Source of the DNA: a virus | Length of the DNA: 40,024 nucleotides | Strand: one strand, 5' to 3' | UHGV virus genome: UHGV-0210832 | In this document: positions 10,317-13,671 of the stretch, in pieces | Layout of the letters: each line of letters opens with the position of its first letter | Numbering within the stretch: position 1 is the first letter of the stretch | Notes under the pieces: generated by a model | What the model saw: only the letters and a program-made list of their open reading frames with translations | Database searches by the model: none | Told to the model about the DNA's origin: nothing | Made by a program: the position numbers and the translations under genes

Positions 10317-10461
10317 ATATCACCTTAAATAGTGGATTGCGGTAGTAAAGATTGTGCCTGTCTTTTTACCACATCAGGCTCGGTGGTTCTCGTGTACCCC
10401 TACAGCGAGAAATCGGATAAACTCTATTCACCCCTACAGAGAGAATGATGGAGATTCACCG

Positions 10462-11001
10462 ATGAGTAACTGGTGGCAGGAACTGTTACGTTTCTTCCTG
10501 CGTGGTCTTACGCTACAACAGTTAATTCATATGCTTATTATTTTAATTGCCTTGATAATAATCACCCCAGCATCAATTAAAGAGTGGGTAGATATAAGGA
10601 ACCCAGAAATACTTCCAGATCACTGGATGTATTACGCAATGCTTTTGTGTATCAGTTATGTTCTGAACAGGGTGATGGAGTTTATATTTCTGGCATCTTC
10701 AGACAGATATAAAAAATATCTCAGTAAGAGAGATGAGGCTAAAGTAATTGTGGAGACTGAGCGCCTGTTCAATTCTCTGAGTATTCAGGAAAAAGAGGTT
10801 TTAGCATTTGCTGTTATGGCAAATAACAAAATTGTACTTAAGCACGGCGATCCGGTCGCTTTATCTCTTATGAGAAAAGGCCTTCTCCATCGCTCAGGTG
10901 TGACTTACAGCGCGTCAGGTAAAGAGAAATTTGTTATACCTGACGTCTGGTTCCATGAGTGTTATATGCGCTTTGCTGGTAAAGCTGATGAGCTAATTTA
11001 G
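10462..11001 (+). CDS. sieB: Superinfection-exclusion SieB-like membrane protein
   Basis: Start set at MSNWWQELL (ATG 10462) with GGAGA RBS; N-terminal TM helix LIHMLIILIALIIITPASI. Sits between N and cIII on the opposite strand to pL, as I recall for sieB in lambda and P22. Confidence 0.4.
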   Translation: MSNWWQELLRFFLRGLTLQQLIHMLIILIALIIITPASIKEWVDIRNPEILPDHWMYYAMLLCISYVLNRVMEFIFLASSDRYKKYLSKRDEAKVIVETERLFNSLSIQEKEVLAFAVMANNKIVLKHGDPVALSLMRKGLLHRSGVTYSASGKEKFVIPDVWFHECYMRFAGKADELI

Positions 11002-11022: not shown

Positions 11023-11229
11023 TCACCTCGCTGTCAGTTGTTTTGATTTCCGGTAGCCTGCCGCGTAAATGGCTACGTTTGGCAGGCAGCACGAACCACA
11101 TTCAACCTTCTTCCTATTCGCTCCTGCTAGCGAAACCACCATTGAAACACGGTCAATATTTTTACGTTTTGCTGTCGCCTCTTTGTGCTTACGAGCGCGT
11201 TCGAGTTTGCGAATCTCTCTTGCTTTCAC
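11023..11229 (-). CDS. N: N-like early antiterminator (P22 gene 24 type)
   Basis: 68 aa with GTG start and GGAGG RBS. C-terminal SLAGANRKKVECGSCCLPNVAIYAAGYRKSKQLTAR resembles my recollection of P22 gp24. First gene downstream of pL/nutL. Confidence 0.65.
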   Translation of the reverse strand: MKAREIRKLERARKHKEATAKRKNIDRVSMVVSLAGANRKKVECGSCCLPNVAIYAAGYRKSKQLTAR

Positions 11230-11468: not shown

Positions 11469-11554
11469 AAGATAACTTAGGTTATAGGTGTGGTCAATAA
11501 CTTAGTTTATATTTTGTGGTAAATAAGTTATAAGTGATGGATAACAAAGGTATT
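11469..11554 (-). promoter_or_regulatory. OL operators and pL promoter
   Basis: Palindromes ATAACTTAGGTTAT (11472-11485), ATAACTTAGTTTAT (11497-11510) and ATAACAAAGGTATT (11541-11554). Minus-strand TTGACC (-35) and TATCTT (-10) with 17-nt spacer overlap the first operator. Confidence 0.6.
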
Positions 11555-11682
11555 TTATTTTTGTAAATGTTGAGGATGAAGGTGATGGGGCAGGGATCAG
11601 GGTTGCACTGTTTAGCAAGTTGTATCTATTTATTTTTCAACAAATACAATTGGTTATGTGTTTTTAGGTGGGCGAACGTGAG

Positions 11683-11710
11683 GCAAAGAAAACCCGGCAC
11701 TGAGGCCGGG
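11683..11710 (-). terminator. Candidate intrinsic terminator ending the cI-side operon (tIMM-like)
   Basis: Minus-strand CCCGGC-CTCAGT-GCCGGG hairpin followed by TTTTCTTTG, about 15 nt after the small ORF stop. Confidence 0.5.
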
Positions 11711-11724
11711 ATGTGAGGAATTAA

Positions 11725-11910
11725 TTACAGAGCAAAGAGATCACGCATTAGGTTGCTGTTCATCTGGTGGTTGAATTGATACGGCTCCAGTTCTTTTTTG
11801 ATCTCGTTCAGGTGCTGTTCCGCTTTTCTTGCCAGATTGCGACTTTCTTGGATCTGGCTTTCCAACATTTTGTTGAGAATTTCCATCTCCGGTTGCAGAT
11901 TCTTCGGCAT
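11725..11910 (-). CDS. Small predicted coiled-coil protein (61 aa) in the rex-equivalent locus
   Basis: AAAGAGGA RBS 8 nt before ATG 11910; codons in this frame are host-typical (CTG, CCG, AAC, GAG); the frame closes 14 codons upstream of the ATG. Confidence 0.5.
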   Translation of the reverse strand: MPKNLQPEMEILNKMLESQIQESRNLARKAEQHLNEIKKELEPYQFNHQMNSNLMRDLFAL

Positions 11911-12745
11911 TAGTATTGTCCTCTTTATCTTGTGTAGTAAGAGGGAAATCCATCACCCTTGGTTTTCCAAACGTTGGGATTTCACCACTATGAATCTTAT
12001 CACAGAAAAAATTATCGAGTATTTCTGTTATACCTTTAGGACATTCAACACACTTGAAAAGTTCCTTGGCTTCTTTTCTGTCGATAACAAATCCATGTGA
12101 AGGATACGAAGCGATGAGTTTGCTTAACGCCCCTTCTTTTAGACTACTTGGCTTGTCTGCTAACCGTTGACCATAAGTGATAGCAATGCTCATCGCACGC
12201 TGATGCTCACCAAGTTTTATTGGATCTATCTGAGCAGCCATGGGGGCTATCAATGCCTCTGTAAGTCTGGTTGCGATGTCAGCAGATATTTTAGTGCTTA
12301 TCTGGTTTTCGTATTTTATCTGAACAAGGTATGAGTTAAACGCTGAAATAGAGCGCTCCTTCAGTGCATCGAGAGCTGTCATAATGGCTAAACCAGAACT
12401 CATCTCACCTATTTCATCGTTTTTTTTCAGTTGGATATCTAATGGCCCGAGCTCACCCATGTCACCGATAACAAGTTTATTCGCAGCTATGGCTATTAGT
12501 GTACCAGCACTTTTGCACGGCCCAACAACTAAAAGTGTTACCGTTTCATAATAGTGCTGGAGAGCCCTACCTATACGATAACCAGCATTAGGATCACCGC
12601 CATAAGTAGCAACACAGAAGATAACATTCTTTTTTAATTCATTTTGTGACTTACGCTTCTTGATTTTATTGGTTAGATCAAGATAACCATCACGATGAAT
12701 ATCGCCTATATACACATAAACATCATTATTTTCAATAGTATTCAT
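11741..12745 (-). CDS. ClpP/crotonase-fold (S49/SDH-like) serine-protease-domain protein in the rexAB-equivalent position
   Basis: 334 aa; GGGAG RBS before ATG 12745. N-terminal ~130 aa align by eye to ClpP: VATYGGDPNAGYRIG against YINSPGGVITAG and VVGPCKSAGTLIAIAANK against CMGQAASMGAFLLTAG (putative nucleophile Ser in KSAG). The last ~56 codons overlap the 61-aa ORF in another frame and use rare codons. Confidence 0.55.
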   Translation of the reverse strand: MNTIENNDVYVYIGDIHRDGYLDLTNKIKKRKSQNELKKNVIFCVATYGGDPNAGYRIGRALQHYYETVTLLVVGPCKSAGTLIAIAANKLVIGDMGELGPLDIQLKKNDEIGEMSSGLAIMTALDALKERSISAFNSYLVQIKYENQISTKISADIATRLTEALIAPMAAQIDPIKLGEHQRAMSIAITYGQRLADKPSSLKEGALSKLIASYPSHGFVIDRKEAKELFKCVECPKGITEILDNFFCDKIHSGEIPTFGKPRVMDFPLTTQDKEDNTNAEESATGDGNSQQNVGKPDPRKSQSGKKSGTAPERDQKRTGAVSIQPPDEQQPNA

Positions 12746-12888: not shown

Positions 12889-13596
12889 TTACCAGCTATG
12901 TGATGACCAGAATACTCTACCAATAATCCTTACTGTTTCATGAAACTCATCTCTATCCATTACTTCATCAGGGTACTCTTCGCGATTTATTGATCTGATT
13001 ATCACCGATGTTGGGGTGGCGATTAATGTTTTTACTCGTAACAAATCAGACTGGCAAATAGCGTAGGTTTTACCATCTCTGATTGTGGTATCTTGTGTGT
13101 TAACGCCAACAACATCTCCGTCGTGAAGCGTTGGTTCCATGCTTTGCCCTACAACCCTAACTAGCTTGGCTGATCTTTCAGATACCCCCATCTTTTTCAG
13201 ATAGTACTTTCTGAAAACCAAAGAGAACTCTGATGATTCCTCTAGCTCGCAGCTACCGCTTCCAGCTGAAAGCGAAACGTTAAGAAGAGGCAACGCGACA
13301 AACTCGTCATCGTTTCTTTTAATATCTTCCCATACCACAGCTTTTAAAGATGATTCACGGACATTGGATGGTTCTTCATGTGTACCATCCCTCATTTCAC
13401 CAATACCAGAGCTAAGCCATTCAGGGCGTACTTTTAAAGCATTGGCTAATTCAACCATCTTGCGAGATCCGTTTGTTTTACCGGATGACATCTTCTGTAT
13501 GGCTGGCTGAGATATTCCAACCATGTCAGCAAGCTGTGATTGCGATACGCCTGCTGAGCTCATGGCTGCATTTAGTCTTTCTGCGAATGTTTTCAT
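12889..13596 (-). CDS. cI: CI-type prophage repressor (HTH plus LexA/S24-like autocleavage domain)
   Basis: Start set at MKTFAERLN (ATG 13596) because the longer track ORF would run into the OR3 operator. HTH region QSQLADMVGISQPAIQKMSSG; C-terminal GQSMEPTLHDGDVV fits the S24 peptidase Ser region. Confidence 0.8.
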   Translation of the reverse strand: MKTFAERLNAAMSSAGVSQSQLADMVGISQPAIQKMSSGKTNGSRKMVELANALKVRPEWLSSGIGEMRDGTHEEPSNVRESSLKAVVWEDIKRNDDEFVALPLLNVSLSAGSGSCELEESSEFSLVFRKYYLKKMGVSERSAKLVRVVGQSMEPTLHDGDVVGVNTQDTTIRDGKTYAICQSDLLRVKTLIATPTSVIIRSINREEYPDEVMDRDEFHETVRIIGRVFWSSHSW

Positions 13597-13608
13597 ACCC
13601 ACAAATCT

Positions 13609-13671
13609 ATAACTACGGTTATCCAAAGTAAAATAACAAAGGTTATTGCTATTTTTTATAACTTGAGTTAT
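13609..13671. promoter_or_regulatory. OR operators (three ATAACnnnnGTTAT palindromes) with embedded divergent pRM/pR
   Basis: ATAACTACGGTTAT (13609-13622), ATAACAAAGGTTAT (13633-13646) and ATAACTTGAGTTAT (13658-13671), spaced about 24-25 bp, between divergent cI and cro. Confidence 0.7.

What the first reader, a model, noticed from the sequence alone, without database searches (positions are those of the whole stretch)
11741..11910. 170-nt dual-frame overlap at the 3' end of the protease-like gene
The last ~56 codons of the 334-aa ORF encode a low-complexity tail rich in host-rare codons (AGA, CGA, GGA, CCA). The 61-aa ORF in the +1 frame over the same DNA uses host-typical codons and has a strong RBS (AAAGAGGA). 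Frame B is closed 14 codons upstream of its ATG, so this is not a simple frameshifted fusion. Either the genes genuinely overlap, or the tail of the large ORF is not meaningfully coded, or a frameshift is involved.
Basis: seen in the sequence. Interest (0 to 1): 0.5.

Follow-up and report, generated by a model that had tools for sequence, protein, structure and literature searches.

The report
Hidden small gene overlapping protease tail
The 170-base two-frame overlap is real: an unannotated 61-residue helical protein gene is written in the +1 frame over the disordered tail of a prophage protease, and comparison of about 96 related loci shows that the small gene is the reading frame evolution mainly protects.

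Summary
On the minus strand, a 334-aa ClpP/SppA-fold protease ORF (12745..11741) and a 61-aa ORF (11910..11725, +1 frame) share 170 nt. The small ORF has the motif AAAGAGGA 8 nt before its ATG, and the +1 frame is closed 14 codons upstream.

Both ORFs appear to be real genes.
- **Selection:** Across 23-29 enterobacterial homologues, changes silent in the protease but altering the small protein occur at about 0.2 of the protease's core synonymous rate (32 observed, 172 expected, p=3e-39). The reverse class runs at about 0.7. The protease-frame synonymous rate drops about five-fold from codon 281, two codons after the small ATG.
- **Other clades:** Three more clades give the same signal.
- **Start signals:** The ribosome-binding motif and ATG are conserved within each clade.
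- **Independence:** In two relatives the small gene lies downstream with only a 4-nt ATGA overlap, in another frame.

The "rare-codon, low-complexity" tail is predicted disordered, weakly constrained, and largely a compositional shadow of the helix codons. Sequencing error, frameshift fusion and chance ORF are rejected.

The pair sits between cI and N, the rexAB/bstA slot. A defence role with the helix as the protease's partner is inferred, not shown. NCBI's PGAP pipeline did not annotate the small gene in any of the nine E. coli loci I inspected.

The parts
11741..12745 (-). 334-aa serine protease with a ClpP/SppA fold. NCBI's PGAP annotation pipeline names its homologues 'SDH family Clp fold serine proteinase'. 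Residues 1-270 are folded; residues 271-334 are a predicted disordered tail.
   Evidence: ORF. phrog_21683 matches full length at E=4e-172. PF01972 scores 26.6 bits, below its cut-off. The AlphaFold2 core has pLDDT above 90 and the tail about 30. Foldseek's best matches are B. subtilis SppA, ClpP and the 1510-N protease. The search returned 1569 homologues.
11725..11910 (-). Unannotated 61-aa gene in the +1 frame, predicted to form one long alpha-helix. This is the strongly constrained frame within the overlap.
   Evidence: ORF. Changes that alter only the small protein run at 0.22 of the core synonymous rate. The helix spans residues 3-60 with pLDDT 86. Only 9 clusters at 90% identity and 4 representatives at 50% identity exist in public protein sets. 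PGAP annotates only the protease in L001-L009.
11741..11910 (-). Dual-coding stretch of 170 nt, covering protease codons 279-334 and small-ORF codons 1-56.
   Evidence: The protease-frame synonymous rate is 1.0-2.0 over codons 1-280 and falls to 0.12-0.29 over codons 281-322. The most variable codon phase is protease position 1, which is small-ORF position 3, in all six clades.
11919..11926 (-). Ribosome-binding (Shine-Dalgarno) motif AAAGAGGA for the small ORF, lying inside the protease coding sequence with an 8-nt spacer to the ATG.
   Evidence: GAGGA, GGGGA or GGAG at working distance from an ATG is kept across the enterobacterial homologues.
11693..11710 (-). Intrinsic terminator stem-loop (CCCGGCCTCAGTGCCGGG followed by a T-rich run; the tail runs on to about 11683). 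It begins 15 nt after the small-ORF stop and ends the operon.
   Evidence: It is conserved in L001-L009.
12889..13626 (-). cI-type repressor (helix-turn-helix plus S24 peptidase domains) immediately upstream on the same strand. It presumably supplies the lysogenic promoter for the cassette.
   Evidence: PF00717 at E=2e-17 and PF01381. A repressor of this type lies upstream of the protease in many distant homologous loci.

Best explanation
This is a genuine same-strand, out-of-frame overlapping gene pair at the end of a prophage immunity-region cassette. The order is cI, then protease, then small gene, then terminator.

The 61-aa ORF is a separate gene. It is translated from its own ribosome-binding site and ATG, both embedded in the protease coding sequence, and it encodes a single long amphipathic helix. 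The last 56 protease codons are read from the same DNA one base out of phase and give an intrinsically disordered C-terminal extension.

The tail's composition is largely the shadow of the helix codons read in the other frame. K/E/Q/N/L/M codons in the small frame become xAA, xGA, xCA, xCT and xAT codons in the protease frame. Those encode K/E/Q, R/G, S/P/T/A and N/D/H/Y, with codons such as GGA, AGA, CGA, CCA and CAA. This explains both the 'rare codons' and the low complexity.

**Shown here**
- The small frame is under purifying selection.
- The overlapped tail is only weakly constrained.
- The pair is conserved family-wide, with the overlap varying from 4 to about 210 nt.
- Initiation of the small ORF is independent of the protease frame.

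**Inferred**
- Both genes are co-transcribed with cI in lysogens.
- The helix is the protease's partner, acting as regulator, substrate or adaptor.
- The cassette is a Rex/BstA-like superinfection-exclusion or abortive-infection module.
For: **Selection within the enterobacterial clade**
- In 23 sequences, changes silent in the protease but non-silent in the small ORF numbered 32 against 172 expected from the core synonymous rate (p=3e-39). The reverse class numbered 86 against 132 (p=1e-5). The direct contrast between the two classes gives p=1.7e-6 for transitions and 4e-4 for transversions.
- The synonymous rate in the non-overlapping linker just upstream is normal at 0.96. The drop starts at codon 281, two codons after the small ATG at codon 279.

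**Other clades**
- The rate for small-only changes is 0.22, 0.36, 0.37 and 0.41 in four separate clades. The rate for tail-only changes is 0.69, 0.65, 1.04 and 0.43.
- The codon-phase pattern is inverted relative to a normal protease frame in all six clades.

**Start signals**
- A ribosome-binding motif and ATG are conserved within each clade. In cluster 6 the main recognisable conserved tail residues map to the GGAG motif and the start codon.

**Distribution**
- 93 of 96 unique loci carry a same-strand out-of-frame ORF of at least 45 aa at this position. The other three have it too, but with a more distal first ATG. Median length is 67 aa.

**Independence of the small gene**
- In L097 and L084 the small gene follows the protease with a 4-nt ATGA overlap, in frame +2.
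- L089, whose protease core is 82% identical to L097's, has the same small protein in frame +1 with a 20-nt overlap (E=3e-12).
- A profile built only from the overlapping ORFs recovers both L089 and L097.

**Structure and context**
- The tail has pLDDT about 30 and the small protein is a confident helix.
- The cassette lies between cI and N, next to a SieB gene, and ends in a terminator.
- The cI-N interval is a known defence hotspot that holds rexAB and bstA (PMC8585504).
Against: - There is no direct evidence of translation. No Ribo-seq or proteomics data were available.
- Homology of the small proteins between clades is not detectable by profile-profile comparison. 'One ancient family' therefore rests on position, frame, length and the per-clade signals.
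- Support for selection keeping the protease frame open is only moderate under the conservative codon-permutation test. The window gives p=0.008; clade medians are 0.06-0.30.
- No defence-system model matches either protein (PADLOC), and no paper on this family was found. The functional part is inference from position alone.
Confidence: 0.88

Rival explanations
1. Only the small gene matters in the overlap. The protease is functionally complete at about residue 270, and its last 56 or so codons are tolerated read-through with no function of their own. The stop codon simply happens to lie late.
For: - Tail-only changes run at 0.65-1.04 of the neutral rate in three of four clades.
- Within the overlap, protease-frame dN/dS is about 1.2.
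- The tail is predicted disordered.
- Overlap length is labile, from 4 to about 210 nt. Some relatives end the protease early (L084 at 278 aa, L086 at 294 aa).
- The apparent conserved motif near the tail's C-terminus (TGAVSIQPPDE) is just the shadow of LEPYQFN in the small frame.
Against: - Given the small protein, the protease frame stays open to its observed stop in fewer than 1 of 400 recodings for the window. Clade medians are 0-0.13. Under permutation the window gives 0.008.
- Tail-only changes are still depleted in the enterobacterial clade (p=1e-5) and run at 0.43 in cluster 5.
- A disordered acidic-then-basic tail exists even where it does not overlap the small gene, as in L097.
Confidence: 0.3
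2. The 61-aa ORF is a chance open frame that the hydrophilic tail permits. Only the protease is a gene.
For: - The +1 frame stays open in 20-75% of synonymous recodings.
- ATG and purine-rich ribosome-binding-like motifs are common in acidic coding sequence.
- PGAP does not annotate the small ORF.
Against: - There is a five-fold loss of protease-synonymous change from codon 281, two codons after the small ATG.
- Small-only changes are depleted at p=3e-39.
- The signal is replicated in three further clades.
- At 60-78% core identity, motifs persist in the +1 frame although the small protein's second codon position is the protease's third position.
- Homologues of the small gene exist that barely overlap the protease and sit in another frame.
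Confidence: 0.04
3. A sequencing indel or a programmed ribosomal frameshift joins the two frames into one product.
For: - The commonest E. coli allele has an A7 run inside the overlap.
- One metagenome protein (P0009) fuses the small protein's N-terminus to the C-terminus of the protease tail.
Against: - The window has AAGAAAA rather than A7 at that position.
- The frame structure is identical in 28 complete E. coli genomes, in a Klebsiella phage, and in IMG/VR and metagenome contigs.
- A ribosome-binding motif and ATG are conserved within each clade.
- The L097 and L084 small genes have a 4-nt overlap and sit in frame +2.
- No slippery site is conserved across the alleles aligned; this was judged by eye, not by a formal scan.
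Confidence: 0.02
4. The constrained element is the plus-strand 100-aa ORF 11798..12100. Its third codon positions coincide with those of the small ORF.
For: It is open in the window and in the Klebsiella phage. It would give the same codon-phase periodicity.
Against: - All three antisense frames carry on average 2-3 stops across the small ORF in most homologues.
- Its product has the Phe/Cys/Ser/Leu/Ile/Trp-rich composition expected when Lys/Glu/Gln/Asn-rich codons are read on the opposite strand, as for a 'shadow' ORF.
- The operon, ribosome-binding motif and terminator are all on the minus strand.
Confidence: 0.01

Closest known systems
Lambda Rz/Rz1 spanin genes (from my own knowledge)
   Same: A lambdoid-phage gene pair in which a small gene is read in the +1 frame of a larger gene on the same strand. 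Both products are functional and they act together.
   Different: Rz1 lies wholly inside Rz and encodes a lipoprotein. Here the small ORF runs 16 nt past the protease stop and has no signal or lipobox sequence. It overlaps only a disordered tail, and it sits in the immunity region rather than the lysis cassette.
Overprinted viral genes in which one product is disordered (Rancurel et al. 2009; from my own knowledge)
   Same: Dual-coding DNA in which one frame encodes an ordered, constrained protein and the other a compositionally biased, disordered and weakly constrained segment.
   Different: Here the disordered partner is the C-terminal extension of an otherwise ordinary enzyme. The extent of overlap slides between relatives, from 4 to about 210 nt.
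Lambda rexAB and Salmonella BTP1 bstA, the prophage defence genes downstream of cI (PMC8585504)
   Same: The cassette occupies the same slot between cI and N, has the same orientation as cI and ends in a terminator. RexAB is likewise a two-gene module. A SieB gene lies nearby.
   Different: There is no sequence or fold relationship to RexA/B or BstA. No anti-phage phenotype has been shown, and PADLOC gives no match.
B. subtilis SppA (PDB 3rst, 4kwb) and ClpP
   Same: These are the best structural matches to the protease core (Foldseek E about 1e-4). The title of entry 4kwb describes SppA with its own C-termini bound in the active sites and mentions self-processing. That is a precedent for a C-terminal tail acting as an in-built substrate or inhibitor.
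   Different: Sequence identity is only 12-16%. The protease here has no membrane anchor and carries a different helical domain (residues 117-253). Self-processing of this tail has not been tested.

Membership tests
Same-strand out-of-frame overlapping (dual-coding) gene pair | Two ORFs on one strand in different frames share a long stretch, and both stay open in homologues. | tested here: met
   The overlap is 170 nt. Both frames are open in all close and distant homologues examined.
Same-strand out-of-frame overlapping (dual-coding) gene pair | Purifying selection on the alternative frame, seen as suppressed synonymous change in the annotated frame. | tested here: met
   Small-only changes run at 0.22-0.41 of the core synonymous rate in four clades. 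The drop begins at codon 281, two codons after the small ATG at codon 279.
Same-strand out-of-frame overlapping (dual-coding) gene pair | The second ORF has its own initiation signals. | tested here: met
   AAAGAGGA lies 8 nt before the ATG. A ribosome-binding motif and ATG are conserved within each clade.
Same-strand out-of-frame overlapping (dual-coding) gene pair | Both products are detected experimentally. | not testable with these tools
   No Ribo-seq or proteomics data were available.
SDH-type ClpP-fold serine proteinase (Pfam PF01972, NCBIfam NF047768) | The score reaches the curated family threshold. | tested here: not met
   PF01972 scores 26.6 bits against a cut-off of 31.3. NF047768 scores 34 bits against 250. 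The precomputed table does list PF01972 for the identical protein P0010, and PGAP uses the family name.
SDH-type ClpP-fold serine proteinase (Pfam PF01972, NCBIfam NF047768) | A ClpP/crotonase-like fold with conserved candidate catalytic Ser, Asp and His residues. | tested here: inconclusive
   The fold is matched. S79, D103, H181 and H217 are invariant in 30 homologues. Which of them form the active site was not established.
Programmed ribosomal frameshift cassette | A conserved slippery site, and no independent start for the downstream frame. | tested here: not met
   An A7 run is present in one allele only and absent from the window. This was judged from the alignment, not by a formal slippery-site scan. 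An independent ribosome-binding motif and ATG are conserved. Homologues with a 4-nt overlap sit in another frame.
Rz/Rz1-type embedded spanin pair | The small gene is fully embedded and encodes a lipoprotein, within the lysis cassette. | tested here: not met
   The small ORF ends 16 nt beyond the protease stop. It is predicted to be one soluble helix. The locus is the immunity region.
Prophage immunity-region defence cassette (the rexAB/bstA slot) | Located between cI and N, co-oriented with cI, and ending in a terminator. | tested here: met
   The same repressor-then-protease order is seen in distant loci.
Prophage immunity-region defence cassette (the rexAB/bstA slot) | Confers resistance to superinfecting phage, or matches a known defence family. 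| tested here: not met
   PADLOC gives no match for either protein. The phenotype cannot be tested with these tools.

The most novel reading that the evidence does not exclude
The protease and its hidden helical partner form a previously unrecognised two-component prophage exclusion or abortive-infection system. It would be widespread in temperate phages of Proteobacteria. In this reading the dual coding ties the two genes together. The disordered protease tail serves as a built-in pseudo-substrate or autoinhibitor, as the SppA C-terminus does, and its release is controlled by the helix on infection.
Probability: 0.2. Interest if true: 0.75.

Novelty: new member of a known kind. Interest (0 to 1): 0.55.

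Why it matters
**Annotation.** A conserved small gene accompanies a protease family with at least 1569 members. It is almost absent from public protein sets: 4 representatives among 1.84 billion proteins. PGAP annotated only the protease in the nine E. coli loci inspected.

**Experiments.** Any work on this protease has to allow for the hidden gene.
- C-terminal tags, truncations or 'synonymous' recoding of the tail would silently mutate it.
- Cloning the 'single' protease gene co-clones all but the last 16 nt of the small ORF, losing its last five codons and its stop.
- Phenotypes could therefore be assigned to the wrong protein.

**Method.** The case shows that an open alternative frame over a disordered tail proves nothing in itself, while substitution classes and sliding overlaps do. 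It also shows how a 'rare-codon, low-complexity' tail can arise as the shadow of an overlapping helix.

**Biology.** The cassette is a candidate two-gene module in the best-known prophage defence slot.

Tried and rejected
- **Open frame as evidence.** I rejected it. Recoding shows the tail's composition leaves the +1 frame open 20-75% of the time.
- **A conserved short motif in the protease tail (G[TA][LIV]P..QPD).** I noted this early and then retracted it. It is the same DNA as the invariant LEPYQ of the small protein. Synonymous changes in the small frame turn GAVSI into GTLPA.
- **Cross-clade homology of the small proteins.** hhalign gave nothing significant, with a best probability of 12%.
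- **Genome-collection scan.** It returned only 6 distant loci. The viral and metagenome scans supplied the data.
- **Family and defence libraries for the small protein.** Pfam, NCBIfam, PHROGs and PADLOC gave nothing meaningful.
- **RNA families.** Rfam gave nothing for the region.
- **Literature.** Searches on the SDH family, PF01972, SppA with prophage, and ClpP-like with anti-phage found nothing on this family. The E. coli defence screen mentions no such protease.
- **Large-frame-guided codon alignment.** It failed for clusters 3 and 6, which are too diverged. I used phase diversity and motif alignments instead.
- **Antisense shadow ORF.** I checked it and rejected it.
- **Two big-database searches with small-protein profiles.** They found only a handful of called proteins and no named family.

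Full report
**1. The observation**

On the minus strand, a 334-aa ORF (12745..11741, stop TGA) and a 61-aa ORF (11910..11725, stop TAA) overlap by 170 nt. The small ORF is in the +1 frame and begins at protease codon 279.
- AAAGAGGA lies at 11926..11919, 8 nt before the ATG.
- The +1 frame is closed by a TGA exactly 14 codons upstream of the ATG.
- Rare codons are enriched in the tail (8/56) relative to the protease core (24/277) and the small ORF (2/61).

**2. Context**

The locus is a lambdoid immunity region.
- A cI-type repressor with helix-turn-helix and S24 peptidase domains lies at 12889..13626 (-), directly upstream.
- An intrinsic terminator at 11710..11693 begins 15 nt after the small-ORF stop.
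- Beyond it lie an N-peptide homologue (11023..11229, -) and a SieB homologue (10354..11001, +).

The large protein has a ClpP/SppA-type fold.
- PF01972 scores below its threshold, while phrog_21683 matches full length.
- The AlphaFold2 core has pLDDT above 90.
- Foldseek's best matches are B. subtilis SppA, ClpP and the 1510-N protease.
- Residues 271-334 have pLDDT about 30, so the whole overlap lies in predicted disorder.

**3. Related loci**

Twenty-eight complete E. coli genomes carry the cassette at 99% or about 90% identity. NCBI's PGAP pipeline annotates only the protease in each of the nine I inspected. A Klebsiella phage keeps both frames open, with the protease 78% and the small protein 75% identical.

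The protease has 1569 homologues, almost all of them 280-350 aa long. All the close relatives, and the great majority of the rest, have an acidic-then-basic low-complexity tail. Viral and metagenome scans supplied DNA for 140 loci ranging from 41% to 100% identity.

**4. A trap**

Nearly every homologue has an open +1 frame of 55-90 codons over its tail, while the +2 frame is always closed. This is expected from composition alone.
- A +1 stop needs T at the second position of a protease codon, which means a hydrophobic residue.
- NNT followed by GAN or AAN, which is frequent in acidic tails, closes the +2 frame.
- Synonymous recoding leaves the +1 frame open in 20-75% of trials.

Openness is therefore not evidence for the small gene.

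**5. What is evidence**

(a) *Substitution classes.* I built a neighbour-joining tree, inferred changes by parsimony, and scaled each class to the protease's own core synonymous rate.

In 23 enterobacterial sequences, changes silent in the protease but non-silent in the small ORF numbered 32 against 172 expected (p=3e-39). The reverse class numbered 86 against 132 (p=1e-5). The direct contrast gives p=1.7e-6 for transitions and 4e-4 for transversions.

Results for the four clades that could be aligned:

| Clade | Small-only changes | Tail-only changes |
|---|---|---|
| Cluster 1 (29 enterobacterial sequences) | 0.22 | 0.69 |
| Cluster 2 | 0.36 | 0.65 |
| Cluster 4 | 0.37 | 1.04 |
| Cluster 5 | 0.41 | 0.43 |

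In cluster 1, the core nonsynonymous rate is 0.07 and the synonymous rate in the upstream linker is 0.96. The three further clades were aligned using the protease frame as guide, which biases against the small frame.

(b) *Position of the drop.* The protease-frame synonymous rate is 1.0-2.0 over codons 1-280. It falls to 0.12-0.29 over codons 281-322, just after the small ATG at codon 279.

(c) *Codon phase.* In all six clades the most variable phase in the overlap is protease position 1, which is small-ORF position 3. Protease position 3 is the least or nearly the least variable in five of the six.

(d) *Start signals.* Each clade keeps its own ribosome-binding motif and start codon:
- GAGGA, 8 nt, ATG in the enterobacterial clade;
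- GAAGG, 8 nt, ATG in cluster 5;
- GGAG, 6 nt, ATG or GTG in cluster 6.

In cluster 6 the main recognisable conserved tail residues correspond to that motif and start codon.

(e) *Deep divergence.* At 60-78% core identity, where protease third positions are saturated, the +1 products still share motifs. These include AIRQASQRSAEIAK in cluster 6 and LLM..Q..KAR.MSKML in cluster 3. The tails in the protease frame are barely alignable.

(f) *Independent homologues (the decisive test).*
- In L097 and L084 the small gene follows a shorter protease with only a 4-nt ATGA overlap, in frame +2.
- L089, whose protease core is 82% identical to L097's, has the same small protein in frame +1 with a 20-nt overlap.
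- A profile built only from the overlapping ORFs recovers both L089 and L097.

The overlap therefore slides from 4 to about 210 nt around one independent gene.

(g) *Antisense frames.* These carry stops in most homologues.

**6. The protease tail**

The tail's sequence is weakly constrained, and some relatives end the protease early. Even so, the frame stays open to its observed stop more often than expected given the small protein.
- Under recoding, the window gives fewer than 1 in 400, and clade medians are 0-0.13.
- Under the conservative permutation test, the window gives 0.008 and clade medians are 0.06-0.30.

The tail is probably made and mildly useful, but it is not sequence-critical.

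Its composition follows from the overlap. Helix codons AAR, GAR, CAR, CTN and ATG, read one base earlier, give xAA, xGA, xCA, xCT and xAT. Those encode K/E/Q, R/G, S/P/T/A and N/D/H/Y, with GGA, AGA, CGA, CCA and CAA prominent among the codons. A C-terminal 'motif' that I first saw in the tail is simply the shadow of the invariant LEPYQ of the small protein.

**7. The small protein**

It is predicted to form one long helix covering residues 3-60, with pLDDT 86. It has no Pfam, NCBIfam, PHROG or PADLOC family. It is almost never called by gene finders: 9 clusters at 90% identity, and 4 representatives among 1.84 billion proteins. Homology between clades is not demonstrable by profile-profile comparison.

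**8. Mechanism**

Shown: two genes, independent initiation of the small one, strong constraint on the small frame, and family-wide linkage of the pair.

Inferred: co-transcription with cI in lysogens, and the helix acting as the protease's partner. A defence or exclusion role is also inferred, because the cI-N interval is the rexAB/bstA hotspot (PMC8585504). A cI-type repressor also precedes the protease in many distant loci. The title of PDB entry 4kwb describes SppA with its own C-termini bound in the active sites and mentions self-processing, which suggests the tail could be an in-built substrate or inhibitor. This is untested.

**9. Verdict**

The overlap is genuine and ancient, and the small gene is real and unannotated. 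Sequencing error, frameshift fusion and chance ORF are rejected. As a kind of feature it is known: it is a same-strand overlapping phage gene pair, like Rz/Rz1. It is a new member of that kind, with practical consequences for annotation and for any work on this protease family.

Noticed in passing
window 11500-11724; E. coli hits H29 and H30: Homology to 873 E. coli records, and to Stx phages, begins within two to three bases of the small-ORF stop codon. The shared region covers the terminator and the pL/nutL side. Other prophages carry different cargo at this site, for example a DUF1828 gene. The mosaic cassette boundary therefore encloses the small ORF, not just the protease.
   Followed up: partly
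window 10354-11001 (+) and 11023-11229 (-): A SieB superinfection-exclusion homologue (PF14163, E=5e-20) lies next to an N-peptide homologue. The N homologue has a GTG start, is 68 aa long and matches only profile positions 44-100. PGAP marks an adjacent 'frameshifted' hypothetical gene in equivalent loci such as L001.
   Followed up: partly
L002, L004-L007 and L009, aligned to window about 11822-11836; protein P0009: The commonest E. coli allele has an A7 run (GGCAAAAAAAGC) inside the overlap. One metagenome protein (P0009, 55 aa) fuses the first 27 residues of the small protein to the last 28 of the protease tail, so it is a frameshift variant or assembly error at that run. The window has AAGAAAA at this position.
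   Followed up: partly
window 11798-12100 (+): A 100-aa antisense ORF has third codon positions that coincide with those of the small ORF. It is a typical shadow ORF. Antisense frames carry 2-3 stops in most homologues.
   Followed up: yes
L010 1802-2017 (Klebsiella phage ST13-OXA48phi12.4): In this phage the protease follows a 71-aa ORF that overlaps its start by 14 nt. The cassette sits beside an ImmA/IrrE-XRE pair rather than a cI-type repressor.
   Followed up: no
L011 (Burkholderia phage vB_HM387, a P2-like Tigrvirus): A homologue at 42% identity lies just downstream of the integrase gene, separated by about 840 bp, which may correspond to a P2-type cargo hotspot (not checked). It also has a 61-aa +1 ORF ending 13 nt past the protease stop, but in GC-rich DNA where open frames are cheap.
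   Followed up: no
L033 (IMG/VR UViG_2907888185_000007): The protease reading frame is truncated at 144 aa in this contig. It is probably a pseudogene or an assembly error.
   Followed up: no
window protease residues 104-125 (about 12371-12436): This stretch contains many residues invariant across 30 homologues (DIQLKKNDEIGEMSSGL), yet it is modelled with pLDDT below 50. It may be an oligomer interface or a substrate gate that a monomer model cannot place.
   Followed up: no
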